NCBI GenBank assembly: GCA_030828405.1
Contig: JAURCP010000002.1
Coordinates: forward strand, 70,935 to 134,934
Reading direction: 5' to 3'
DNA length: 64,000 nt
From: Thermoplasmatota archaeon
Lineage (GTDB): Archaea > Thermoplasmatota > Poseidoniia > Poseidoniales > Thalassarchaeaceae
Positions 30,381 to 56,968 of this stretch are shown piece after piece. Under the pieces are notes generated by a model. The model was not told where the DNA came from and searched no databases. It saw only the letters and a program-made list of their open reading frames with translations. The translations under genes were made by a program, and so were the position numbers. The first letter of the stretch is position 1, and the number at the start of each line of letters is the position of its first letter.

Positions 30381-31852
<1,472 letters not shown>

Positions 31853-32314: not shown

Positions 32315-34237
32315 TCAATCAGCACCGAAGAACTCTCGAAGAACTGGATGCATTTCCATAGCTTGTTCCTTTTGAATCTGCTCATAAGTCCTTAGAATAA
32401 TTCCGACCGCTAGTAGTAAACCAGTACCTGTGGCGTTTCCTACAGTACCAAGAAGATCAGCACCTGCCGCGAGTAAACCTACGAATGCACCTGAGAAAAG
32501 AGTTACAGGTGGAATATATCTCTCTAGGATACGTTCCAATACAACAGGATTTTTTCTAAACCCAGGTATTTGCATTCCCGTCCTTTCAATCTGCTTAGCG
32601 ACATCCTTGGCACCCATATTTGTTGTTTCAATCCAAAACTTAGCGAATACTGTAGAACCAGCAGTCATCACGAAAACATAAACCACTACGTGGACCATTA
32701 GCTGACCCAAACTATGCCCATACGCATCCCCAGTCTGATTCAATAATGGTAAGAACCAATCTCCAACTCCATTTACCATGGAGGAATACCATGCAAATCC
32801 ATCGGAAGGTGTGGTGGCACCAACTTCGTATGATCCGAACCAGTGTGCTCTACTCCAAGCACCGTTACGACCAAGGATAGGGACTGTTGACAATACTGGA
32901 TGGCTCCAAAATAGTAATGTGAACATATTAATATTAGCTAATAGAGCAGCCATTAGAATTACTGGAATGTTACTAGCATAAACAAGACGTATTGGATATT
33001 GACCACGATGACCTCTGACTTTACCATGAGTTAATGGCAATTCCAACTTACTTGATTCCGCGTAAGCAACTACTAGGAAAACAATAATTGAGGAAACCAA
33101 TGCAGCTATAGGATTCGCATGATTCAACAAAATTAATTCGAAACCATTCTCAGATACCAATTGAGAATTTGTAGCTGTTCGTAAGGTATAGAAAATCATA
33201 GGCAATGTCCCCGAAGGTGGGTTCTGGAAAGACAAAGGAGAACCCGCAGTTACTGGTAATGGAGATAATGTTCCAACGAAAGTTGATTGAGCGACTCCTG
33301 CCGCAATAAACAAGGAAATACCACTGCCAATTCCCCACTTGCTGACTAACTCATCGAGTAAGAATACTAAATATGACCCCATGAATAATTGTGCAACAAT
33401 TATCGTATTAGCCCAACCAATCCCGAAATCTAATATCAAAGTCTCTGAAGGATCTAAGAATCCATATACTTGAGGAATTGATTCAATAGGGATCATTATC
33501 AAAACTAATAATTTTTGAATACCTTGGTACAACTGCTTGTCACTAGAGTTTTGTAAATCAAGCTGTATGATTTTTGCTCCCGCGAAAAGTTGCATGATAA
33601 TTGAACCTGTGACGATAGGGCCAATCCCTAGGTGCATGATTGAACCTGATGCACCGGCCATGATCGCTCTGAATGAAGAAAATATATCTAAGGTTGAATC
33701 TGAAAGACCATAAATCATAACATTAGTCATCATGAAGTAAATTATGAGAACAAGAGTTGTAGTCCATAATTTCTGATTGAAACGCACGTGACCTTCTGGT
33801 TTAGTGATACTAGGATAGACATCAACGAACCTACTGAGTCCGTATAAACGACTACTTTCTGAACCCGAGTACAATAAACAAACTAAAGACATGGCAACAG
33901 CAACTCCGAGCAGGGCCACCCCCACCAATAGGAATCCCACAGCAGCAGTGTCAACCCATCCCCAATATGCAAGACCTACAACTGAAATCAACCATATTCC
34001 TGGTTTGAGTATACGACCAAGGTATGGGATATCTTTGATATTGTCCGGTAAATCGGTCATTGCACACCACATTATGTATGCAACATACGGTATGGAAACT
34101 ATGAACATTCTAAGTGCTCTCATTTGTTCATCTGGAGCACCATCTAGCAAATCATCACGTAACCAATAGAATAGCATTCCCCAGTATATACCTGCCATTA
34201 ATGCAGTTCCAATAACGCTAGGTTTTCTGTCTACCAT
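32315..34237 (-). CDS. secY: Preprotein translocase subunit SecY with extra N-terminal 4-TM extension
   Basis: The SecY core is recognisable from about aa 135 (PSITKPEGHVRFNQKLWTT, LGIGPIVTGSIIMQL, GIGSGISLFIAAGV, NIPVILMAALLAN). ATG 34237 is preceded at 5 nt by the SD GGGGTGA. The ORF-track GTG is at 34246. Confidence 0.9.
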   Translation of the reverse strand: MVDRKPSVIGTALMAGIYWGMLFYWLRDDLLDGAPDEQMRALRMFIVSIPYVAYIMWCAMTDLPDNIKDIPYLGRILKPGIWLISVVGLAYWGWVDTAAVGFLLVGVALLGVAVAMSLVCLLYSGSESSRLYGLSRFVDVYPSITKPEGHVRFNQKLWTTTLVLIIYFMMTNVMIYGLSDSTLDIFSSFRAIMAGASGSIMHLGIGPIVTGSIIMQLFAGAKIIQLDLQNSSDKQLYQGIQKLLVLIMIPIESIPQVYGFLDPSETLILDFGIGWANTIIVAQLFMGSYLVFLLDELVSKWGIGSGISLFIAAGVAQSTFVGTLSPLPVTAGSPLSFQNPPSGTLPMIFYTLRTATNSQLVSENGFELILLNHANPIAALVSSIIVFLVVAYAESSKLELPLTHGKVRGHRGQYPIRLVYASNIPVILMAALLANINMFTLLFWSHPVLSTVPILGRNGAWSRAHWFGSYEVGATTPSDGFAWYSSMVNGVGDWFLPLLNQTGDAYGHSLGQLMVHVVVYVFVMTAGSTVFAKFWIETTNMGAKDVAKQIERTGMQIPGFRKNPVVLERILERYIPPVTLFSGAFVGLLAAGADLLGTVGNATGTGLLLAVGIILRTYEQIQKEQAMEMHPVLREFFGAD

Positions 34238-34261
34238 TAGATTCACCCCTTGATATTATGA

Positions 34262-46946: not shown

Positions 46947-48704
46947 ATGAGGCACGTCGTCCAACATACAGAGTTAGTTGAGGGCTCTGTTGAAGCTCGC
47001 GCATACCAACTAGAAGCAGTTGATGAAGCACTTGCTGGATCAATGTTACTTGTGTTACCAACAGCTGCTGGAAAGACAGCCGTTTCTTGGATGTTAATCG
47101 CTGAAATATTACATTCAAAACAAGGTTGGGTGTTATTTATTGCACCTACAAGTGCGCTAGTTGATCAACATTTAAAAGATTTAAAAAAGGTAATGAAGAA
47201 TGTTGAAGCCATCTCTATAACTGGAAGTAATATTCCAAAAAAACGTGAGAAATTATGGAAAAACTCGAAAATTATTGTAGCTACGCCGCAGGTTGTACGT
47301 AATGATGTATTGAATGGTATTTTATCTTTGGAAGAATGTTCATTACTAATTCTAGATGAAGCACATCATTCCACAGGTAAACATGCCATGGTTCAATCGG
47401 CTGAGATGTTTTGTTTATCGGCAAAAAATGGACATATTTTGGGTGCTACTGCTAGTCCCGGTTCTAATTCAATGATTGTGAATGAGATTTGTAGTAGATT
47501 GAAAATTGAAAGAATTCATATCAGAAAAGCGAATGACCCCATGTTGAAAGATTACCTTTCAGGTTTAGAAATACAAGAAATATTAGTGAATGTCCCAGAA
47601 GAAATTAAGATGTTAGTTGCTCCATTAGAGTTATGGATTGGCAGTATTGTAGACAGAGAAAGAAGGCTAGGGAAGTATGTCAGAACGGGGCCGCCCTCAT
47701 TTGGAGGGCTTAAAGAAGCCATGAATAGAGCGCAACATTCGATTAAATTGGGTGATGTAAGAGGATATTCATCTGTATCCAATATAGCAACTGCAATGAC
47801 CTTGAATCACCTAATTAATCACCTTCTGACACAAGGAATTACTGCAGCAAGAGAATTTTTAGACGCCTCAGCCGATTTTAGTAACAATCCAAGTAAATCA
47901 ATTCAAAATTTCCACAAAGATAGAAGAATAATTGAATTGAAGGAATCATTATCTAAAATAGAAGAAATTCATAATAAAGTTGGCACTGTAAGAAGATTAG
48001 TTAGACATAGATTGAGAAGGGATCCTAATAGCAAGATTATCATTTTTGCATCTTTTAGGAATACTGTAGAATCTTTGGAAGAGGCATTGGTTGACTTAAA
48101 CGGCGTCAAATCAGTACAAATGATTGGACAGTCAGAAAGAGCTGGTAAAAAAGGTCTCAAACCAAAAGAGCAAATTGAAGTTCTAAATAAATTTAGAGAA
48201 GGAGAATACAATGTCCTTGTAGCAACCTCGGTTGCTGAAGAAGGGTTAGATATTCCGAGTGCTGACTTAGTCATATTTTATGAGCCAGTAGGTAGTGAAA
48301 TTAGAACAATTCAGAGAAGAGGAAGGACAGGAAGGCATAGAGAAGGAGAAGTAATCGTCCTTATTGCAGAAGGAACTCGTGACGAAAATATGAGATCTTC
48401 AGCCCAAAAGAAGGAAGAGAATATGTATAGCTCTGTTCAAAGAGTAAGGAGGAAGTTACCTAGAAAAAATCATCAAGACTTATCAAAAATACAGGGATTC
48501 TTTGTAATAGGAGATAATGAGACGATTTCTGCAGCTGATTACGTTAGAAGAGAAAGAGAACTTTATCGCCCCATAATGAAAAAAATAGACTTGAACGAAG
48601 TAGTCGTTACAGAAAAGGATGAAGCCATAAAGATAGAACCGGCGAAATATAGGCCAATAGGTCAAAGAGGATTGGAAGATTTTGATAGAGAAAGTGATGA
48701 TTAA
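46947..48704 (+). CDS. hef: Hef/FANCM (Mph1)-family SF2 helicase, helicase part only
   Basis: Motif I PTAAGKT, II LILDEAHH, III ATASPGS, VI QRRGRTGR, plus the family-typical helical insertion between the RecA lobes. The protein ends about 100 aa after motif VI with no ERCC4 nuclease motif. Confidence 0.8.
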   Translation: MRHVVQHTELVEGSVEARAYQLEAVDEALAGSMLLVLPTAAGKTAVSWMLIAEILHSKQGWVLFIAPTSALVDQHLKDLKKVMKNVEAISITGSNIPKKREKLWKNSKIIVATPQVVRNDVLNGILSLEECSLLILDEAHHSTGKHAMVQSAEMFCLSAKNGHILGATASPGSNSMIVNEICSRLKIERIHIRKANDPMLKDYLSGLEIQEILVNVPEEIKMLVAPLELWIGSIVDRERRLGKYVRTGPPSFGGLKEAMNRAQHSIKLGDVRGYSSVSNIATAMTLNHLINHLLTQGITAAREFLDASADFSNNPSKSIQNFHKDRRIIELKESLSKIEEIHNKVGTVRRLVRHRLRRDPNSKIIIFASFRNTVESLEEALVDLNGVKSVQMIGQSERAGKKGLKPKEQIEVLNKFREGEYNVLVATSVAEEGLDIPSADLVIFYEPVGSEIRTIQRRGRTGRHREGEVIVLIAEGTRDENMRSSAQKKEENMYSSVQRVRRKLPRKNHQDLSKIQGFFVIGDNETISAADYVRRERELYRPIMKKIDLNEVVVTEKDEAIKIEPAKYRPIGQRGLEDFDRESDD

Positions 48705-49561
48705 TCTCCAATTACCATTACCCTTGTCCTTAGTTGAGCGAATCTAGTATTATAATGCCCCAGAGCAAAAGTCAATATTTCACAAAGATGAATGACTGGA
48801 ATATTTGTTCTGAGACCAGTTCTCTGAGAGGCCTTTCCTTGATATATGTCCATGACAGAATGAGATAAGTTACAAGCACTAACAATTAATTGAGCACCCT
48901 CTGATTTAGCGTCGTTAAGTACTGAGGCAGATAATTTGAGGACTGTAGGCTCTTCAGATAACAAGCTAGGAGCACCCACACTTTGCATTCTTGAGTCCCA
49001 TTTAACTGGTTGACCACCTAAAGTTTTCATCAGCTGTTCCATATAATCTGGGTCATAAACGTCGTCACCACCGCAAAACCCATCTTGTTGCATATTGGGT
49101 CCATAATATGAAGCAACTGTGAAATCTATAGGGTTCACAACCATGGGTTTGACTTTATCGAGACCGATTTCATCTACGATGACATGTAATAAATGATTGA
49201 CAGAGGTTTCACCTGTAAATTCCATCCCACAAGTCTTAGCTAAAACATCGTTAATTTCTGCTAATAATATCGGATCAGACCTTAATTCCATCAGATCTTC
49301 AGAAAGATTTCCTGCTGTAGAAGCACAGGGAGTGATTATTTCCAGGCCGAGTGCCTCGGCCTGTGCAAAAATACGAGCATTTAGCGCTAATTGTAACTTT
49401 TTATTGGCTTGACGAATTATTCCTGCGCCACAACTCGTTGCACCTTCTAGAGGTGTGAGCTTAATCCCCAATGATTTAGCTAAAGGTATCATAGAGTCTG
49501 TAACTTCAGGAGAACCAGAGTGGGCTACATTTCCTGGGTGATAGGCATAATTCATTGGCAT
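48701..49561 (-). CDS. HdrB/SdhE/LutA-like protein with two degenerate CCG domains
   Basis: Colinear with HdrB-family proteins (YAYHPG.., LGIKL..CGAG, ARIFAQAE..GLEIITPC, IVSACN, IPVIHLCEIL), but most canonical Cys positions are substituted. The start overlaps the upstream stop (TAATG). Confidence 0.7.
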   Translation of the reverse strand: MPMNYAYHPGNVAHSGSPEVTDSMIPLAKSLGIKLTPLEGATSCGAGIIRQANKKLQLALNARIFAQAEALGLEIITPCASTAGNLSEDLMELRSDPILLAEINDVLAKTCGMEFTGETSVNHLLHVIVDEIGLDKVKPMVVNPIDFTVASYYGPNMQQDGFCGGDDVYDPDYMEQLMKTLGGQPVKWDSRMQSVGAPSLLSEEPTVLKLSASVLNDAKSEGAQLIVSACNLSHSVMDIYQGKASQRTGLRTNIPVIHLCEILTFALGHYNTRFAQLRTRVMVIGD

Positions 49562-51732
49562 TAGAACCTACCATCCATCTCATTGAAAATTGCTACAACT
49601 TCATGATGATTTTTCACTGAAGAATTAAACTGCCGTGGCATCTTTCCAAGACCTGCAGGGGGAGCTATCAAAGCCAAAATATCATTAATCATTTTACCAC
49701 CATTTCTTGTAAACCCAAGAACCATCCTAGCAGTGACTCCAGAAAATAGATTCCCTATAAGTCCAATTGGGCCTAAGACCTGCCTATACAATACAGTATC
49801 ATTTACTTTACCACTACTTTTGACAGTCACTGCATACCACCAAACATGTTTACCATGGCGTCCATCATACCCTGTTCTTGCTAAAGTTGATGTTTTACAA
49901 TTCAATAAAGAATCGTGGATTATAGTTCCCTTGCCCTGTCTCCTTATAGAAGATAAATCAGTTTCAGCCTTAATACCGATTGAAGAATCGAGAAGTGCTT
50001 CAATTTCTTTTTTCTTACTAGGTGAGATACGTGGATCATTCCTCCTTGCCCATGCATGAGATAATATCGATGGCCCCAAATATTCTTCTGAATGAGAAGT
50101 AGCATCTGAGGAAGAATGTAGAATTGGATAACTATGAATATCTGTTATTGAATGAAGTTCTGTTGCGATAAGAGGAGTCATAGAACCAAGAGCTCCTTGA
50201 GGGGTGTTCAATCCCTTTCTAGTCGCGGACACCATCCAAGGTTTACTTATCTCACGCTTTGTTTCAAATGCCCAATGATCTACAACTAAATCTCTAATTA
50301 CTTCAAAACCGCTTAATGGCTCTATCTTGATACTAATCCCACCATCACGAATTGGAGCGGCTAAGTCTAATCTTAGATTACCGGGTAAAACATGCCTTCC
50401 GTTAATAGTGATTGCAGTTGTGGGATCGTCTACGGTTCCATCACGGAAAGTTAATGACCCATCTTGGGTATTTTTCAGAGTCCTGAGGACTTCTAGGATA
50501 GACATTTGCCCAGGTAATGCACATATCCAAGTATCTTTACCTGTTGTTGATGAAGAGGGGTCATATCTGAAGATACTAATTTCTGCACGTATAGATTCGG
50601 ATTTCAAATCTGGAACTGTGAAGCCATCCTCACCTGAAGCACCAGTTGAATCCGAAGAAATTGAGTCTTTAATTGCCTGAACCATTTCTTCATGAAAGAG
50701 TCCCTCACCATCGACTGCCGCCATTGATGCAAGGGATTCTTCGGCCCAAACCTGAGAGATTTTATCGTAATCTACATCGCAATCTACTCTCTCGACCAAT
50801 CTTGTAGCACCTAATTCCTCAAATCTTTTATCCCATTCCTTACCAGATTCACAGAATAACTCATATGATGTATCTCCAAGTGCTAGAACAGAGAAATGTA
50901 CTCCATTTAGTAGCCCGGGCGACGCTGAAACTGCTTTTTGCCATAATTCCTCTGCATTATCTGGTTGCTCTCCTTCACCCCATGTTGAACAAATAATGAG
51001 AACTCTTTTCTTTGATGATAATGAATTTAAATCGAAACCATCCATGTCAGCAACTTCCGCATCTAAACCATAGGAAGTAGCTTGCTTTGCGAATTTTGCA
51101 GCAAGACCTTCTGCGTTACCCGATTGAGAACCAAAAAGAATTGTCATGGAACGATCGCCATCTGAAGAAATCTCAATAGAGGATTCTGGGTTTTCGGATT
51201 CTACCTTACTTACTGCGGCACCGGATGCATTATTTTTCACTTCTTCCACTAAACTTTCTTGGAACATTCCAGAGTCATCTACTGCACCCATCCTTGCAAG
51301 AGTCTCATCCATCCATTCTTTAGCAGGGGTTTCATAATCAACGTCACAATCTACGCGTTGATTGATTCTAAAACCACCCTTAGACTCTAACCAAGAATCC
51401 CATTCTTTACCTGACTCACAAAATAAATCATATGATGAATCACCTAAAGCTAGGACTGAAAAATTAACTCCCGACATAGATGGAGAATCATCAGCATTTG
51501 CTGAAATCCAAAGATCTTCAGCATTATCCGGTTGCTCTCCTTCTCCCCAAGTACTACAGCAAATCATAATTCTTTTTTGTCCTGCCATATCACTTATCTG
51601 GATTTCATCCATCCCTTTTACTGTTGCTTCAAGTCCGTATTTAGATGCTGCTTTTCCTATTTTAGAAGCCACATCTTCTGAGTTACCAGATTGAGAACCA
51701 AACAGCACAAGTAGAGAACGAACGGCCGACAT
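49561..51732 (-). CDS. Fusion protein: two tandem FMN-flavodoxin modules + cysteine-less SdhB/FrdB-like domain + C-terminal region of about 100 aa with no recognised family
   Basis: Flavodoxin motifs occur twice (LFGSQSGN, STWGEGEQPDNAE, FSVLALGD.SY.LFCESGKEWD, VDCDVDY). Residues ~381-622 align with SdhB (ISIFRYDP, GSLTFR, INGRHVL, EVIRDLVVD, KPWMV, YLGPSILSHAW, LLNCKTS). SD AGGTG lies 6 nt before the ATG. Confidence 0.75.
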   Translation of the reverse strand: MSAVRSLLVLFGSQSGNSEDVASKIGKAASKYGLEATVKGMDEIQISDMAGQKRIMICCSTWGEGEQPDNAEDLWISANADDSPSMSGVNFSVLALGDSSYDLFCESGKEWDSWLESKGGFRINQRVDCDVDYETPAKEWMDETLARMGAVDDSGMFQESLVEEVKNNASGAAVSKVESENPESSIEISSDGDRSMTILFGSQSGNAEGLAAKFAKQATSYGLDAEVADMDGFDLNSLSSKKRVLIICSTWGEGEQPDNAEELWQKAVSASPGLLNGVHFSVLALGDTSYELFCESGKEWDKRFEELGATRLVERVDCDVDYDKISQVWAEESLASMAAVDGEGLFHEEMVQAIKDSISSDSTGASGEDGFTVPDLKSESIRAEISIFRYDPSSSTTGKDTWICALPGQMSILEVLRTLKNTQDGSLTFRDGTVDDPTTAITINGRHVLPGNLRLDLAAPIRDGGISIKIEPLSGFEVIRDLVVDHWAFETKREISKPWMVSATRKGLNTPQGALGSMTPLIATELHSITDIHSYPILHSSSDATSHSEEYLGPSILSHAWARRNDPRISPSKKKEIEALLDSSIGIKAETDLSSIRRQGKGTIIHDSLLNCKTSTLARTGYDGRHGKHVWWYAVTVKSSGKVNDTVLYRQVLGPIGLIGNLFSGVTARMVLGFTRNGGKMINDILALIAPPAGLGKMPRQFNSSVKNHHEVVAIFNEMDGRF

Positions 51733-51829
51733 AGAAACACCTTTACCACTAAGGGCAATATTTCGACCAATCGACGATTATTTAATGTAGCGTGTTGTAG
51801 TGATGAAATTAAGTCATTGAATTTTAGGT

Positions 51830-53527: not shown

Positions 53528-56500
53528 TTAAGATTCATTCTGTTGATTAATCCACGCTTGACCGTAATGTTCCCATTGTTCCATCGTCCAGCCCTCTGGA
53601 AGTCCTGATTCGGGAATCTCTGGCGCCCCTGAAACATTATTTTTCTCATCCGGCTTTAATTCTTCAACAAGAGTTTCTTGATTAGCCATTGGTGGCGGAG
53701 GTTGTTTGAATATTTCTTCTGAACCGCCATACATTGAATTTGCCACCTTGTCTTCCGAAGGTAATTCAGGAGCAGTTGGTAAACTAGGTGGAATGAAGGG
53801 ATTACCCTGAGAATATTCATAGTCGTCAAAAGTCGAGATTTCTTCTAAAGGTGAAGAAGCACTACGCATAATTCTGAAAGTTGCTAATAAGACTGCAACT
53901 AAAATTACTAAACCGACTAATATGAATATGATATTTCCTGCTAAACCTGCATATTCTCCGGCATTTGTCCCAGTATCTACTGGGTCGATCTTGAACATTT
54001 CAATACTAGCAGACATTGAAACCTTATCTATATCTCCATCAACATTGAGAGGCAATTTAAATATCTCTGAGTTATTGTTAAGATTTCTTAAATTCTCATC
54101 TGTAGCAGTTAAGAAAACTGTGATTTCCCTCATTGATTGGGCCTCTAAAACGAAGTTTTGATCTCCAGTATCAACCCTAGCATCAACTATATTGTAGAAA
54201 ATATTAGAGTTTCTATCAATGTCAGCCCTCAACAACTGAGCATCAGTTGGATGCTCATTCTTTACAGTAAAAGTAATTTCAATATCATTACCACCTTCTC
54301 TAATCTCAATTACGCCGGGAGGATTGAGTGTAATCCAACCTTGAGCACCGACCTGGAAATCTGCGTTTCCAGTACTAGAAATTGGAGATTCAGATGTCTG
54401 AGAAAGGACACTAGTAGCAGTCATCGAAATCGTTCTGTCACCGAAAGTCAATTGACCGAAAGAATATCTCACAGTAAGGTTGTGAGATTCGCCAGGAGAT
54501 ATATATGGAGTCTTACCATCATTGAGCCCTATAGCAGATGCAGAAACATCTGAAAAATGATCAAAAGAAATTTCAAAAGAATCTGCAACGTTTCCTCTAT
54601 TCCAAATACGCCAATTAACAGTTCTGGGGTCATCTCCACCACGGAAAACCTCATCTAACATATCTAAGTCTTCAACTTCAACTAAATTTGTTTGTGGTAC
54701 TGTCAACAACATTTGAGACGACATTTGATAGTCTGTATTCAATTTACTTGATGCAGTCAAGATTATTGAATAAGTTTCAGCCACAATTCCATATGGCATT
54801 GGGAGAAGCATAGTAACTGTGGTATCTCCACCAAAGGGATCAATCTCAAAGGTCTGTTCAGTATTCATTTCAAGACCTAATTTCCAATCAGATTGAATGC
54901 TTAAATCGAATGACTCAGGAGAATTACCATTATTAATTAACCTAATTTCTATTAATCTCAAAGAATTATCAGCAGGAGCAACTAGGTTGAAAACTTCTGG
55001 TTCAATGACTAACTCAGAATAAACTGGAACGACTATATTTACTTGCCACTCAGCAAGATATTGGGCGGGCGAAACGCCTGATGCAAGTAATGTAACCGAG
55101 TAAGTACCTGGAGAGACTTGAGGAGGAGCTGTAATTACAGCATCAATTAAGATATCATCAGTTAAAGCCAATTCAAGAGTAGAAACTTCTGAACCATTGT
55201 GATACCATTTAATATCGGCATTATCTACCCAGTCAATATTTGGGAAGGCCGCATCAAAACTCCAAGTTGCTATTTGATTACCAGTGTTTTTGAAAGACAT
55301 TGGTATCACTCCACTTGCTCCTGGTTCTAGAGTCGCGGCAGGGTTCTGCAATGTAACCTGCCTTAACTTACTTGAATAGGCAGGCATTACAGAAACAGGT
55401 AAACTGACAAATTCTTTTGAGAGGTTAGTAACGCCATCATTCACCCACACATTCCAGTATAAATCTTGAACTCCTGAACCATCAGGTATTGTAAGATTGA
55501 ACCATGTATCCATATAACTCAAAGCAGGTATCACTTTGCTGATTACATAATTGTCATGATCTACTGGATTGTTCGAATCAATACGTAATGGGAAATCATA
55601 CATCCATGAACGATTTGTAACTTCTGTGTAAAGTCTCAGAGTAATATCTACATATCCATTATTCTTAATATTACAGTACAAAGACGGAGGATTAGGGTCA
55701 GATGGAACAACTAAGTAAGAATTAGGAAGAGGATCATTACAATCAAAATCTAAAGTATATTGGGGTACTTTCTCAATAGCGAAAATAATGAATGAATCAA
55801 TTTGTATCCCTTGGCTTGCAAAAGAACTATTTGAATCAAATTTGAATGCTAAAGTATACTCAGCGGATGGATGTACTTCAGTCATATTCCAGACTAACTG
55901 AGACCATTCACCAGTAGTTGAGAGAGATTGAGATGAGAAATTATAGAACTCTTTAGTTCCACCTGAATCTGCTTCAATTCTCATTTCATCACCCGCAGCC
56001 ATTTCGCCCCAAGCATTTGTTACTAATTGAATAGTCAAGAAATCGAAACCCTTTAGTCGAATCTTACAGAAATTATTGCCATAATTCGAACTTACTGCAG
56101 AGTCTAGAGTACCTAATCCTAGACCATGACCGGGCTCATTACAATTGTCAAATGGAGTAAACCATCCCCACCAAAGTCTATCATGTCTGTTACTAGCATA
56201 ATTCGCACCCGGTCGAGAAACTCGCCAGTGATTTTCACCTTCTTCACTTGATGCGTTTTCCATTCTCCAATGGCCGAAACTATCTGGATTAGACGATAAT
56301 TGCCCAGTAGAATCATATCCTGCACCTACCCAAGTTGGTACATTTGCTTGTAGTTGATTTGTACAATCAATCACACTATCTCCATCTACATCGCCACAAA
56401 AGCCATTTTCCATTGGATCGTTCCAAATTGCGACTGGAATTAATCGATCTAATTCATTATTAGATTCCGTATCATCAGCTAATCCGCCATCAACTATACC

Positions 56501-56968
56501 TCTAAGTATAATCCCTCCTTCTAAGTATCCATTTTCATCTAATAAACTGTGGGCAGAACTAGGTGTCCAAACAAAGTTTGCCTTCAAAGATTGGAAACCT
56601 GAAAGAAGCATACTGACATTATATTCTGCTATCATGAAGCCGACAGGGTGCCAAATCTGGAGATACCCTTCTGCAGCTGCTGGTTGACCAGAAGAACCTG
56701 CCTGAGTATAGGTCACATTAATTTGAATTGTTTCATCTCTCATGATATATTCAACTATTGATCCATCTGGCTGAGTCCATTCTTTAGCATCTCTTGTTTG
56801 GTTTCCAATTTCTATTGACGTGATCTCGAAATCAATCAAAGATTTAGGCCCTATGTCGTCCCTATTTTCATTTTCATCTAATTCAGAATTAATAAATAAA
56901 GGTGATAAACTCATCATAATCAAAATTGACAACACAAAGATTGGAGTTAGCATACGCATGATTAACAA
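53528..56968 (-). CDS. Very large surface protein: signal peptide, ectodomain of about 1000 aa, one C-terminal TM anchor, Pro-rich cytoplasmic tail
   Basis: N-terminal hydrophobic signal (PIFVLSILIMMSLSPLF), many N-x-S/T sequons, TM LAGNIIFILVGLVILVAVLLATF, and a 112-aa tail. No catalytic motif recognised. Confidence 0.7.
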   Translation of the reverse strand: MLIMRMLTPIFVLSILIMMSLSPLFINSELDENENRDDIGPKSLIDFEITSIEIGNQTRDAKEWTQPDGSIVEYIMRDETIQINVTYTQAGSSGQPAAAEGYLQIWHPVGFMIAEYNVSMLLSGFQSLKANFVWTPSSAHSLLDENGYLEGGIILRGIVDGGLADDTESNNELDRLIPVAIWNDPMENGFCGDVDGDSVIDCTNQLQANVPTWVGAGYDSTGQLSSNPDSFGHWRMENASSEEGENHWRVSRPGANYASNRHDRLWWGWFTPFDNCNEPGHGLGLGTLDSAVSSNYGNNFCKIRLKGFDFLTIQLVTNAWGEMAAGDEMRIEADSGGTKEFYNFSSQSLSTTGEWSQLVWNMTEVHPSAEYTLAFKFDSNSSFASQGIQIDSFIIFAIEKVPQYTLDFDCNDPLPNSYLVVPSDPNPPSLYCNIKNNGYVDITLRLYTEVTNRSWMYDFPLRIDSNNPVDHDNYVISKVIPALSYMDTWFNLTIPDGSGVQDLYWNVWVNDGVTNLSKEFVSLPVSVMPAYSSKLRQVTLQNPAATLEPGASGVIPMSFKNTGNQIATWSFDAAFPNIDWVDNADIKWYHNGSEVSTLELALTDDILIDAVITAPPQVSPGTYSVTLLASGVSPAQYLAEWQVNIVVPVYSELVIEPEVFNLVAPADNSLRLIEIRLINNGNSPESFDLSIQSDWKLGLEMNTEQTFEIDPFGGDTTVTMLLPMPYGIVAETYSIILTASSKLNTDYQMSSQMLLTVPQTNLVEVEDLDMLDEVFRGGDDPRTVNWRIWNRGNVADSFEISFDHFSDVSASAIGLNDGKTPYISPGESHNLTVRYSFGQLTFGDRTISMTATSVLSQTSESPISSTGNADFQVGAQGWITLNPPGVIEIREGGNDIEITFTVKNEHPTDAQLLRADIDRNSNIFYNIVDARVDTGDQNFVLEAQSMREITVFLTATDENLRNLNNNSEIFKLPLNVDGDIDKVSMSASIEMFKIDPVDTGTNAGEYAGLAGNIIFILVGLVILVAVLLATFRIMRSASSPLEEISTFDDYEYSQGNPFIPPSLPTAPELPSEDKVANSMYGGSEEIFKQPPPPMANQETLVEELKPDEKNNVSGAPEIPESGLPEGWTMEQWEHYGQAWINQQNES

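What the first reader, a model, noticed from the sequence alone, without database searches (positions are those of the whole stretch)
48701..51732. Two-gene unit: tandem-flavodoxin::SdhB-like fusion coupled to an HdrB/SdhE-like protein, both stripped of Fe-S cysteines
The two minus-strand genes are translationally coupled (stop/start overlap TAATG at 49559-49563). The 723-aa product carries two FMN-flavodoxin modules followed by a domain colinear with the iron-sulfur subunit of succinate dehydrogenase/fumarate reductase. The 286-aa partner is colinear with two-CCG-domain proteins (HdrB, SdhE of type-E SDH, LutA, TfrB C-terminal half). SdhB-like plus CCG protein is the classic pairing of non-canonical archaeal SDH/thiol:fumarate reductase. 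Here both partners lack nearly all cluster-ligating cysteines, FMN modules are grafted on instead, and no SdhA-type flavoprotein or membrane anchor is adjacent. I do not recognise this architecture as a described enzyme. Two possible readings: an iron-sparing electron-transfer module in which FMN replaces Fe-S clusters (attractive for an oligotrophic marine archaeon), or a redox-dead scaffold derived from an SDH/Hdr module.
Basis: partly seen in the sequence, partly recalled or inferred. Interest (0 to 1): 0.75.

Follow-up and report, generated by a model that had tools for sequence, protein, structure and literature searches.

The report
Iron-sulfur-free SdhB/SdhE pair with flavodoxins
Marine Group II archaea all carry a conserved two-protein module that descends from the iron-sulfur and "CCG" subunits of an unusual succinate dehydrogenase, has lost almost all its iron-sulfur sites, and instead carries swappable ferredoxin or flavodoxin domains on flexible tethers; nobody has described it, and genome surveys currently label it "cysJ" and "sdhC".

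Summary
Two translationally coupled minus-strand genes encode (i) a 723-aa protein made of flavodoxin, flavodoxin and a full-length homologue of long-type SdhB, with 0 of 11 cluster cysteines, and (ii) a 286-aa SdhE/HdrB-fold protein with 3 of 10 cluster cysteines. The pair is not a decayed copy. It lies in a fixed position (thermosome, pair, Hef helicase, r-protein operon) in at least 234 species-level genomes, and the 80 inspected are all Poseidoniales. dN/dS is about 0.04-0.09. New here: the SdhB-like body lacks clusters in every member. The N-terminal carrier slot varies (Fd, Fd+Fd, Fd+Fld, Fld, Fld+Fld), and every carrier keeps its cofactor motifs. Deep lineages keep one intact CCG cluster motif, which crown MGII lost. 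The nearest cysteine-bearing relatives sit in sdhA-sdhB-CCG (type-E SDH) operons. My best reading is a redox-inert SdhB/SdhE-derived scaffold whose tethered carriers do the electron transfer, with iron content falling stepwise from about 8 Fe to 0 Fe in this window's form. The external partner and the terminal acceptor are unknown. I could not retrieve a canonical MGII sdhAB locus. The literature holds only automatic labels. Verdict: a real, uncharacterised new variant of a known kind, with function inferred only.

The parts
49561..51732 (-). Big subunit gene (723 aa): Fld1, linker, Fld2, linker, SdhB-like body. The stop codon TAA (49561-49563) overlaps the next gene's ATG by 1 nt.
51283..51720 (-). 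Flavodoxin module 1 (aa 5-150). This is the variable N-terminal carrier slot; other lineages have a [4Fe-4S] ferredoxin domain here. FMN motifs GSQSGN / STWGEGEQPDNA / LGDSSY are present.
51148..51282 (-). Acidic, low-complexity linker 1 (aa 151-195; 11 D+E against 3 K+R). Its dN is 3-5 times that of the flanking domains.
50713..51147 (-). Flavodoxin module 2 (aa 196-340). This is the body-proximal module, orthologous across Fld+Fld, Fd+Fld and most single-Fld forms (68-72% identity). FMN motifs are intact.
50581..50712 (-). Acidic linker 2 (aa 341-384).
50266..50580 (-). SdhB-like N-terminal domain (Fer2_3 fold, aa 385-489). The four [2Fe-2S] cysteine columns read D/D/T/P. C404 is the only cysteine invariant across 93 crown orthologues.
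49933..50265 (-). Remnant of the SdhB cubane-cluster domain (aa 490-600). All seven ligand columns (CxxCxxCxxxC and CxxxxxCxxxC) are substituted.
49564..49932 (-). C-terminal extension homologous to that of long-type (type-E operon) SdhB (aa 601-723). Nearly invariant in the family; omega 0.015-0.08.
49648..49716 (-). Family-specific 23-aa insertion GFTRNGGKMINDILALIAPPAGL, absent from all Cys-bearing SdhB relatives. It adjoins the most hydrophobic stretch of the protein (KD19 max 1.42 centred on aa 665), which is still below transmembrane-helix level.
49559..49563 (-). TAATG stop/start overlap (translational coupling). The same 1-nt overlap occurs in 64 of 79 related loci.
48701..49561 (-). 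Small subunit gene (286 aa): an SdhE/HdrB-fold protein with two degenerate CCG domains.
49319..49549 (-). CCG domain 1 remnant (aa 5-81). The ligand columns read N11, S43, C44, C79, T82; in deep lineages they read C, C, C, C, C.
48746..49120 (-). CCG domain 2 remnant (aa 148-272). The ligand columns read P155, S194, V195, C230, S233. C163, gained together with loss of the cluster motif, lies here.
51738..51785 (-). Putative own expression signals in the 97-nt spacer after the thermosome gene: a TATA-like TTAAATAA (51778-51785) and an SD-like GGTAAAGGTG (51738-51747). Read from the sequence only and not tested.
   Evidence: inference

Best explanation
The two genes encode a 1:1 complex descended from the SdhB (iron-sulfur) and SdhE (CCG) subunits of a type-E succinate:quinone oxidoreductase. 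The SdhB-derived body has lost all three clusters and now acts as a redox-inert scaffold that holds the SdhE-derived subunit and probably docks a partner enzyme. Electron transfer is done by one or two small carrier domains (ferredoxin and/or flavodoxin) fused to its N-terminus through flexible acidic linkers. These would swing between an external flavoprotein dehydrogenase and an acceptor at or near the SdhE-like subunit. My preferred donor is an SdhA-type flavoprotein encoded elsewhere, because the SdhB N-domain that normally docks SdhA is among the most constrained parts. The acceptor site is a noncubane Fe-S cluster in deep lineages and a Cys/His site or directly bound quinone in crown MGII. 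Iron was shed stepwise. All SdhB clusters and CCG site 2 were lost before the family radiated. CCG site 1 was lost in crown MGII. The N-terminal ferredoxin was then replaced by a second flavodoxin, so this window's Fld+Fld form needs no iron at all. SHOWN: the homologies, the cysteine losses, intact carrier motifs, purifying selection, module swapping, synteny and gene coupling. INFERRED: heterodimer formation, the scaffold role, swinging-arm transfer, the donor, the acceptor, and the direction of flow.
For: Descent from SdhB/SdhE. hhalign to long SdhB gives 100% probability, E 1.4e-44, end to end including the C-terminal extension. The small protein is 32% identical to a canonical SdhE (39% for deep-lineage partners), against 25-29% to HdrB in the fold search. 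The nearest Cys-bearing relatives all lie in sdhA-sdhB-CCG operons, with sdhB/CCG overlapping or directly adjacent (L094, L092, L126). Redox-inert body. All 11 ligand columns are substituted in every member examined. Functional, not decaying. Overall omega is 0.04-0.09, with the SdhB-like N-domain at 0.014-0.11 and the C-terminus at 0.015-0.08. A relative is present in 234 GTDB species, and 'cysJ' is in about 100% of MGII genomes. Live and interchangeable carriers. All 119 flavodoxin modules keep the three FMN motifs, and all 28 ferredoxin modules keep CxxCxxC...CP. Architectures Fd, Fd+Fd, Fd+Fld, Fld and Fld+Fld all occur. Fld1 is a separate paralogous class occupying the slot that Fd holds elsewhere. 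Tethers. The linkers are acidic and low-complexity, and linker 1 evolves 3-5 times faster than the domains. Stepwise loss. Partner states are CCCCC|xSVCS (deep), NSCCT|PSVCS (crown) and NSDCS|SSVCS. 1:1 complex. Adjacent in 79 of 80 loci, with a 1-nt overlap in 64. SdhB+CCG fusions exist naturally as TfrB (family knowledge; the 490-535-aa hits are probable examples, not verified).
Against: There is no direct evidence that the two proteins bind each other, bind SdhA, or transfer electrons. In crown MGII neither subunit has a complete cluster site, so the carriers' intramolecular acceptor is undefined. AF2 failed on the SdhB-like half (pLDDT 35), so no structural test of a docking surface or carrier reach was possible, and no heterodimer could be predicted. 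No sdhA lies within 10 kb of the pair in any of six divergent lineages annotated with Pfam, and the same synteny holds in the other loci. Tully 2019's table implies a separate canonical sdhB in about 90% of MGII genomes, which would compete for SdhA. The degenerate partner occurs with Fd-only big subunits, so iron-sparing cannot be the only driver. No transmembrane helix is present, so access to quinone is unproven.
Confidence: 0.4

Rival explanations
1. It is an ETF- or ferredoxin-to-quinone link, an analogue of EtfD. The tethered carriers accept electrons from EtfAB (beta-oxidation, amino-acid catabolism) or from 2-oxoacid:ferredoxin oxidoreductase and pass them to quinone at the SdhE-like subunit. 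That would fill the missing ETF:quinone step in MGII.
For: EtfAB (94-97%), acyl-CoA dehydrogenase and KorAB (about 90%) are in the MGII core. No FixCX, ETFDH, GlpC or LutA rows appear in the same tables. The small-protein model matches mycobacterial EtfD, a CCG-domain ETF:menaquinone oxidoreductase (9ojn, E 2.6e-5; PMC13083937). The ancestral cofactor set ([4Fe-4S] + flavin + one more cluster) resembles that of ETF:quinone oxidoreductases (own knowledge).
Against: There is no heme-b or transmembrane module like EtfD's. No etfAB lies next to the pair in any locus. Absence of FixCX from core or enriched tables is weak evidence of absence from genomes. The scaffold descends from the SdhA-docking subunit, not from an ETF-docking protein.
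Confidence: 0.15
2. It is an alternative, iron-free small-subunit set for complex II itself. Under iron scarcity SdhA would assemble with Fld-SdhB* and SdhE* instead of the canonical Fe-S SdhB, giving succinate, then FAD, then FMN, then quinone (an isoenzyme swap like ferredoxin/flavodoxin).
For: The SdhB N-domain, which docks SdhA in SDH, is among the most constrained regions (omega 0.014-0.03 in the closest pairs). sdhA is in 98% of MGII genomes. The only K00241 'sdhC' cluster is probably this small protein, because JGI gives it the same name. Flavodoxin-fold FMN proteins can reduce quinones (own knowledge of WrbA and NQO-type enzymes).
Against: The pair is constitutively placed beside housekeeping genes, with no sign of iron regulation examined. 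Members with Fd domains and a CCG cluster are not iron-free. One or two flavins must bridge a distance that normally takes three clusters, and that was not testable here. The canonical sdhAB locus and its own anchor genes could not be retrieved.
Confidence: 0.15
3. It is a flavin- or ferredoxin-driven thiol/disulfide reductase. The remaining cysteines of the partner (C44/C79, C163, C230) form a redox-active dithiol that replaced the noncubane cluster chemistry of HdrB-type disulfide reductases.
For: C44, C79 and C230 are invariant and C163 is present in 95% or more of about 80 crown species. C163 was gained at the same point the cluster ligands were lost. C44 and C79 derive from ligands of one and the same cluster, so they should lie close together (inference from HdrB; PMC13083937).
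Against: State C lineages lack C44 (D instead) yet keep the gene pair. Only C79 and C230 are universal. The catalytic bridging cysteines of HdrB (Cys81 and Cys234 equivalents) are T82 and S233 here.
Confidence: 0.08
4. The remaining Cys/His residues still assemble a metal site (structural Zn of S3(N/O)1 type, or a small Fe-S or mononuclear Fe centre). On this reading the complex is not metal-free and the pocket remains the electron acceptor. This can coexist with the best explanation.
For: Sulfolobus SdhE carries an isolated Zn site with S3(O/N)1 coordination supplied by CCG cysteines (PMC2754724). EtfD shows that a CCG motif with a reduced Cys set binds a different cluster, a linear [3Fe-4S] on 4 Cys. 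C79, C163, C230 plus H123, H126, H234 and H258 are conserved in states B and C.
Against: The three or four thiolates come from two different domains. The AF2 model is least confident exactly in those loops (pLDDT blocks 41-50 = 64, 151-170 = 64 and 51, 191-200 = 65). No geometry could be measured.
Confidence: 0.15
5. It is a decaying remnant or pseudogene pair of an SDH operon with no current function.
For: Nearly all cofactor ligands are lost, and the pair is separated from sdhA.
Against: omega is 0.03-0.09 in both genes. The ORFs are intact and their coupling is conserved in 79 of 80 species. Long invariant stretches are present, and the pair occurs in 234 GTDB species and about 100% of MGII genomes.
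Confidence: 0.01

Closest known systems
Type-E (non-classical) succinate:quinone oxidoreductase SdhB + SdhE (Sulfolobus/Acidianus SdhABEF; PMC2754724) and epsilonproteobacterial MFR SdhABE (PMC2680327)
   Same: The gene order is SdhB then the CCG protein, with overlapping or adjacent start. The long SdhB carries the same C-terminal extension (hhalign 100%). The partner has a two-CCG-domain fold (32-39% identity to a canonical SdhE). No transmembrane helix is present; SdhE is considered a monotopic anchor.
   Different: No sdhA is adjacent. 0 of 11 SdhB cluster cysteines and 3 of 10 CCG cysteines remain. One or two ferredoxin or flavodoxin domains are added at the N-terminus. A 23-aa family-specific insertion is present. 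Scores fall far below the curated family cut-offs.
HdrB of heterodisulfide reductase (5odc_B, 8rvv_B)
   Same: The whole-chain fold matches (TM 0.85-0.89; E 2.9e-32).
   Different: Both noncubane [4Fe-4S] ligand sets are incomplete. The catalytic bridging cysteines (Cys81 and Cys234) are Thr and Ser here. No HdrC or HdrA partners are present, and the host is aerobic.
TfrB of thiol:fumarate reductase (SdhB-like + CCG fused in one chain)
   Same: It has the same two modules, physically joined, which supports a direct SdhB-CCG interaction.
   Different: NF004898 scores 27.5 bits against a cut-off of 385. TfrB keeps its clusters, has no flavodoxin or ferredoxin arm, and pairs with TfrA.
FMN domain of CysJ / cytochrome P450 reductase / MioC (diflavin-reductase-type flavodoxin)
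   Same: Both flavodoxin modules are of this type (TIGR01931 profile positions 59-204; MioC and short flavodoxin models). These are classic mobile FMN shuttles on flexible hinges.
   Different: There is no FAD/NADPH (FNR-like) domain. The modules are fused to an SdhB-derived body, not to a reductase. The 'cysJ' annotation is therefore wrong.
EtfD (mycobacterial ETF:menaquinone oxidoreductase, 9ojn; PMC13083937)
   Same: It has a CCG two-domain module with a modified ligand set and works in an aerobe. It links a soluble flavoprotein to the quinone pool.
   Different: EtfD has five transmembrane helices, heme b, two cubane clusters and two CCG-bound clusters. The MGII pair has none of the transmembrane or heme parts and, in this window, no cluster sites.
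Ferredoxin/flavodoxin substitution in iron-poor oceans (isiB/fldA versus petF)
   Same: The same slot of the protein holds a [4Fe-4S] ferredoxin in some lineages and a flavodoxin in others.
   Different: Here the exchange is hard-wired by domain replacement within a fusion protein over evolutionary time. It is not a regulated switch between two free carriers.

Membership tests
SdhB/FrdB iron-sulfur subunit (TIGR00384; Pfam Fer2_3 + Fer4_8/17) | Sequence and profile colinearity with SdhB over both domains | tested here: met
   hhalign probability 100%, E 1.4e-44, 307 columns; Fer2_3 E 1.7e-10
SdhB/FrdB iron-sulfur subunit (TIGR00384; Pfam Fer2_3 + Fer4_8/17) | Four cysteines ligating [2Fe-2S] (CxxxxCxxC...C) | tested here: not met
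   All four columns are substituted in the window and in all family representatives; a stray single Cys occurs in a few deep members
SdhB/FrdB iron-sulfur subunit (TIGR00384; Pfam Fer2_3 + Fer4_8/17) | Seven or eight cysteines ligating the [4Fe-4S] and [3Fe-4S]/[4Fe-4S] clusters | tested here: not met
   All seven conserved columns are substituted; no Fer4 Pfam hit
SdhB/FrdB iron-sulfur subunit (TIGR00384; Pfam Fer2_3 + Fer4_8/17) | Score above the curated family cut-off | tested here: not met
   TIGR00384 scores 54.4 bits against a cut-off of 88; all the SdhB/FrdB, TfrB and MFR-SdhB models in the table score far below their cut-offs
SdhB/FrdB iron-sulfur subunit (TIGR00384; Pfam Fer2_3 + Fer4_8/17) | Encoded next to, and assembled with, an SdhA/FrdA flavoprotein | tested here: not met
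   Adjacency only: no FAD_binding_2 gene within 10 kb in six divergent lineages, nor among the 20 other large window ORFs scanned. Physical assembly is not testable here.
Type-E SdhE / HdrB (two CCG domains, PF02754) | Two-domain HdrB/SdhE fold | tested here: met
   AF2 pLDDT 81, pTM 0.83; Foldseek TM 0.85-0.89 to HdrB
Type-E SdhE / HdrB (two CCG domains, PF02754) | Two complete CXnCCGXmCXXC motifs (10 Cys) | tested here: not met
   3 of 10 remain (N S C C T | P S V C S). Deep relatives keep motif 1 only.
Type-E SdhE / HdrB (two CCG domains, PF02754) | Score above curated cut-offs | tested here: inconclusive
   Pfam CCG scores 38.1 bits against a gathering score of 20.6, with one domain only (met). 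TIGR03288 scores 128 against 345 and NF042965 scores 115 against 500 (not met).
Flavodoxin (PF00258) | Pfam score above gathering, and the FMN phosphate loop plus the two isoalloxazine-flanking loops | tested here: met
   212 bits against 25, two stretches. GSQSGN / STWGEGExPDNA / LGDxxY are present in both modules and in 119 of 119 family modules. FMN binding itself was not tested.
CysJ, sulfite reductase flavoprotein (TIGR01931), the label used in MGII surveys | FMN domain plus FAD/NADPH ferredoxin-reductase-type domain | tested here: not met
   Only profile positions 59-204 of 597 are matched; 279 bits against a cut-off of 668
SdhC/FrdC cytochrome b membrane anchor (K00241 name given by JGI to the small protein) | Transmembrane helices and heme-b ligation | tested here: not met
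   KD19 maximum is 1.15 in the small protein and no transmembrane segment is present. The fold is HdrB-like and soluble.
TfrB (thiol:fumarate reductase subunit B) | Single chain SdhB-like + CCG with intact clusters; curated model NF004898 | tested here: not met
   27.5 and 10.4 bits against a cut-off of 385. The genes are separate; the one in-frame fusion (L074) deletes invariant residues and looks like an artefact.

The most novel reading that the evidence does not exclude
MGII archaea run a complex-II-type (or ETF-type) dehydrogenase:quinone link with no iron at all. A swinging flavodoxin arm on a cluster-less SdhB scaffold would replace the three-cluster electron wire. This would be the first iron-sulfur-free member of the succinate:quinone oxidoreductase superfamily, evolved stepwise in one of the most abundant archaeal groups of the iron-poor surface ocean.
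Probability: 0.12. Interest if true: 0.9.

Novelty: new variant of a known kind. Interest (0 to 1): 0.66.

Why it matters
MGII (Poseidoniales) are reported as the most abundant planktonic archaea of the surface ocean (abstracts listed) and remain uncultured. Their bioenergetics is inferred entirely from annotation.

- **Annotation.** This pair is a core gene set that surveys currently count as "cysJ" and, very probably, as the "sdhC" of a "canonical complex II". At least part of the published picture of the MGII respiratory chain therefore rests on a misannotation.
- **Biochemistry.** It would be a rare natural case where the Fe-S wire of an SDH-type module was abandoned while the protein scaffold was kept under strong selection, with electron transfer handed to tethered ferredoxin or flavodoxin domains.
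- **A testable series.** The family contains a graded natural series (about 8, 4 and 0 Fe per complex) that can be tested directly against ocean iron gradients.
- **Open questions it could address.** How aerobic archaea re-oxidise ETF or ferredoxin, and how far iron economy can reshape respiratory enzymes.

Tried and rejected
1. **AF2 of the SdhB-like half** with a 36-sequence alignment gave pLDDT 35. The model is unusable and was not searched.
2. **Retrieving a canonical MGII sdhA/sdhB locus.** The window has none. The outgroup SdhBs P0301, P0280 and P0268 lie in type-E operons of other organisms. The last homology search showed P0280 is an orphan whose next relatives (about 47% identity) include Nitrospinota, Chloroflexi and Firmicutes, not MGII. 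The question rests only on Tully 2019's KO table.
3. **Source names for deep members and outgroups** were almost all unnamed, giving no taxonomy for the deep lineages.
4. **L074's 987-aa in-frame big+small ORF** was considered as a natural fusion. I rejected it because it deletes about 25 invariant C-terminal residues.
5. **'A degenerate partner always comes with a flavodoxin'** was proposed after and rejected by P0018/L127 (Fd-only big subunit with a state-B partner).
6. **Membrane anchoring by a transmembrane helix** is rejected (KD19 max 1.42).
7. **Pseudogene or relaxed selection** is rejected.
8. **Literature.** One query was badly scoped and one was malformed. Searches for MGII plus SDH or flavodoxin found only automatic labels.
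9. **P0283**, a 1287-aa repeat protein matching the profile, was judged spurious.

Full report
**1. Observation**

The window holds two minus-strand ORFs, 49561..51732 (723 aa) and 48701..49561 (286 aa). The stop of the first and the ATG of the second share one base in TAATG at 49559-49563.

The large protein has two Pfam Flavodoxin_1 stretches (E 4.9e-63) and a Fer2_3 domain at aa 385-489 (E 1.7e-10). NCBIfam's SdhB/FrdB model TIGR00384 matches aa 388-575 (E 1.1e-14), far below its curated cut-off. The small protein hits Pfam CCG (E 1.7e-9), HdrB TIGR03288 (E 3.6e-37) and the MFR SdhE model (E 3.7e-33), again below the curated cut-offs. It aligns over its whole length with solved HdrB chains (8rvv_B, E 2.9e-32). 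Its AlphaFold2 model (pLDDT 81, pTM 0.83) superposes on HdrB with TM 0.85-0.89.

**2. Cysteine ligands**

I aligned eleven family representatives with thirteen cysteine-bearing SdhB relatives. The alignment is colinear end to end. All 11 cysteine columns conserved in the outgroup (CxxxxCxxC...C, CxxCxxCxxxC, CxxxxxCxxxC) are substituted in every family member. The same holds for 31 further metagenomic loci. A profile-profile comparison gives probability 100% and E 1.4e-44 over 307 columns, covering positions 2-312 of a 320-column SdhB profile.

This also explains the nearly invariant C-terminal 120 residues. They are the C-terminal extension typical of "long" SdhB proteins, plus a 23-aa family-specific insertion (GFTRNGGKMINDILALIAPPAGL, 49648-49716).

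In the small protein the ten HdrB ligand columns read N S C C T | P S V C S. Only C44, C79 and C230 survive. The second cysteine of each CxxC holds the catalytic iron in HdrB (PMC13083937). Here those positions are T82 and S233.

**3. Not a decaying copy**

Homology searches found hundreds of orthologues. A scan of one genome per GTDB species found relatives in 234 species, and the best 80 are all Poseidoniales of both families. In those 80 loci the small gene follows the big one in 79, with the same 1-nt overlap in 64.

The neighbourhood is conserved even in the most divergent members: thermosome, the pair, Hef-type helicase, then the rpl3 ribosomal-protein operon. Pereira et al. noticed this arrangement only through automatic names (PMC6741140).

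Nei-Gojobori dN/dS against close orthologues is 0.04-0.09 for the big gene and 0.03-0.04 for the small one. The cluster-less SdhB-like N-domain is at 0.014-0.11 and the C-terminus at 0.015-0.08. dS exceeds 1, so the ratios are approximate. A search of 1.84 billion representative proteins shows a compact family, then a drop from about E 1e-80 to 1e-22, where ordinary SdhB proteins begin.

**4. Ancestry**

The closest cysteine-bearing relatives are 312-381-aa SdhB proteins. All three that I could place on contigs lie in sdhA-sdhB-CCG operons, with sdhB and the CCG gene overlapping or directly adjacent (L094, L092, L126).

The window's small protein is 32% identical to the L094 SdhE, and deep-lineage partners are 39% identical. 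That is more than the 25-29% identity to HdrB seen in the fold search. The pair is thus a derived sdhB-sdhE module of a type-E succinate:quinone oxidoreductase that no longer sits beside sdhA.

**5. The variable carrier slot**

The N-terminus of the big protein differs between lineages.

| Architecture | Examples | Count among 72 complete genes of the 80 GTDB loci |
|---|---|---|
| Fld+Fld | this window | 35 |
| Fd+Fld | many crown and deep lineages | 23 |
| Fld only | P0080 | 14 |
| Fd only | P0251, P0018, L105 | seen outside this set |
| Fd+Fd | P0254, L095 | seen outside this set |

One further gene in the set showed no recognisable carrier module.

The body-proximal flavodoxin (Fld2) is the constant, orthologous module (68-72% identity across architectures). 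The N-terminal flavodoxin (Fld1) is a separate paralogous class (58%) sitting where other lineages have the ferredoxin. All 119 flavodoxin modules keep the three FMN-binding signatures, and all 28 ferredoxin modules keep CxxCxxC...CP. The linkers are acidic and low-complexity, and linker 1 evolves 3-5 times faster than the domains. These are the hallmarks of mobile, functional electron-carrier domains.

**6. Stepwise loss in the partner**

The partner exists in three discrete states.

| State | Ligand columns | Where found | Big subunit |
|---|---|---|---|
| A | CCCCC\|xSVCS | deep lineages, locus GC 0.46-0.69 | Fd, Fd+Fd or Fd+Fld |
| B | NSCCT\|PSVCS | about 80 crown MGII loci | Fd, Fd+Fld, Fld or Fld+Fld |
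| C | NSDCS\|SSVCS | loci L108-L117 | Fd+Fld |

State A keeps all five cysteines of CCG motif 1. State B is invariant across the crown and occurs with all four carrier arrangements.

Only C79, C230, H123, H234 and H258 are universal. C163 and H126 became fixed when the cluster motif was lost.

The order of events was therefore as follows. All SdhB clusters and CCG site 2 were lost before the family radiated. CCG site 1 was lost in the crown. The ferredoxin was repeatedly replaced by, or lost in favour of, flavodoxin. Counting one [4Fe-4S] per ferredoxin and per intact CCG motif gives about 8 Fe, then 4 Fe, then 0 Fe per complex. The window has the 0-Fe form. This counting is my inference.

**7. 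Function**

None of this shows what the complex does. My best reading is that the SdhB/SdhE-derived body is a redox-inert scaffold and that the tethered carriers do the electron transfer. They would move electrons between an external flavoprotein dehydrogenase and an acceptor at or near the SdhE-like subunit.

The SdhB N-domain normally docks SdhA, and it is among the most constrained parts. I therefore favour an SdhA-type partner encoded elsewhere. EtfAB and KorAB are also core MGII genes, and no FixCX or ETFDH rows appear in Tully's tables. The CCG-domain protein EtfD links ETF to menaquinone in mycobacteria.

In crown MGII the acceptor site is undefined. Candidates are a directly bound quinone, a Cys/His metal site (Sulfolobus SdhE has a Zn site with S3(O/N)1 coordination; PMC2754724), or a dithiol. 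No segment reaches transmembrane hydrophobicity (KD19 max 1.42), so the complex is soluble or peripheral.

**8. Relation to the canonical complex II of MGII**

Tully et al. state that MGII have canonical complex II (PMC6336850). Their core-gene table lists the following.

| GhostKOALA label | MGIIa / MGIIb genomes | Gene clusters |
|---|---|---|
| sdhA | 98% / 98% | 15 |
| sdhB | 92% / 90% | 1 |
| sdhC | 96% / 92% | 1 |
| cysJ | 100% / 99% | 4 |
| sdhD | no row | none |

The big protein matches CysJ models only over their FMN domain, and RAST-based work called it sulfite reductase flavoprotein. "cysJ" is therefore almost certainly this gene. JGI names the small protein with the K00241 "sdhC" label, so the "sdhC" cluster is probably this gene as well. 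A separate canonical sdhB then exists elsewhere.

I could not fetch that locus. The window has no SDH genes, and my last homology search showed that the candidate operon L094 belongs to another organism. This point remains indirect.

**9. Novelty and limits**

Full-text searches for MGII or Poseidoniales with succinate dehydrogenase or flavodoxin, and for SdhE/CCG/type-E, found no description of this architecture. Database names are generic or wrong: "flavodoxin domain-containing protein", "heterodisulfide reductase-related", "cysJ", "sdhC".

I class it as a new variant of a known kind, namely a type-E SdhB/SdhE module. The main gaps are these:
- There is no usable structure for the SdhB-like half (pLDDT 35).
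- No heterodimer prediction was possible.
- I had no model coordinates with which to measure cysteine distances.
- The deep lineages have no taxonomy.
- No expression or iron-gradient data were examined.

Noticed in passing
window 30381..31852 (-): A full-length archaeal 16S rRNA gene (Rfam RF01959, 1462 bits). It accounts for the GC peak at 30-32 kb. No 23S gene lies next to it in the window, so the rRNA genes appear unlinked. It sits between an ABC-transporter binding-protein gene and secY.
   Followed up: partly
window 46947..48704 (+); compare L001 12520-15120, L087 12829-15735, L090 7079-7876: The Hef-type helicase convergent with the small gene is only 585 aa here (583 and 579 aa in L004-L006). 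It lacks the ERCC4 nuclease and HhH domains that the syntenic gene carries in other lineages (857-968 aa). In L090 the ERCC4 part is a separate 265-aa ORF. Its stop region overlaps the small gene's stop by 4 nt (48701-48704).
   Followed up: partly
window 32315..34246 (-): The SecY ORF is 643 aa, but the Pfam plug and SecY domains start only at aa 168. Either there is a roughly 165-aa N-terminal extension or the GTG start is over-called.
   Followed up: no
window 53528..56968 (-): A 1146-aa ORF upstream of the thermosome gene is syntenic in MGII loci (1112-1195 aa). It has no Pfam assignment apart from a faint FixG_C hit. From reading the translation, it appears to have a hydrophobic N-terminus and a C-terminal hydrophobic segment, which suggests a large surface protein.
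   Followed up: no
P0002; L001-L003, L020, L021 (big-subunit genes): Some single-flavodoxin forms carry an Fld1-type module (92% identical to Fld1 of Fld+Fld relatives) rather than the usual Fld2-type. P0002 looks like an Fld1/Fld2 hybrid. This suggests recombination between the tandem flavodoxin repeats, or assembly collapse.
   Followed up: partly
L074 (REDSEA-S11_B3N4), 987-aa ORF: The big and small genes are in one frame, but the junction deletes about 25 otherwise invariant C-terminal residues of the big protein. This is probably an assembly artefact rather than a natural TfrB-like fusion.
   Followed up: partly
L087 (ENA ERZ26167216 ctg495766, 3.0 Mb contig; locus GC 69%): The most divergent family member (ferredoxin-only, 446 aa) lies on a 3.0-Mb, high-GC contig. 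That is much larger and more GC-rich than typical MGII genomes, yet it keeps the thermosome, pair, Hef, rpl3 synteny. A PLD-like gene is inserted before the pair. The lineage is unidentified.
   Followed up: no
P0283 (1287 aa, from the representative search): A cysteine-free protein made of about 10 tandem repeats matched profile positions 304-378 of the family (E 4.5e-15). I judged it a spurious low-complexity or repeat match.
   Followed up: no
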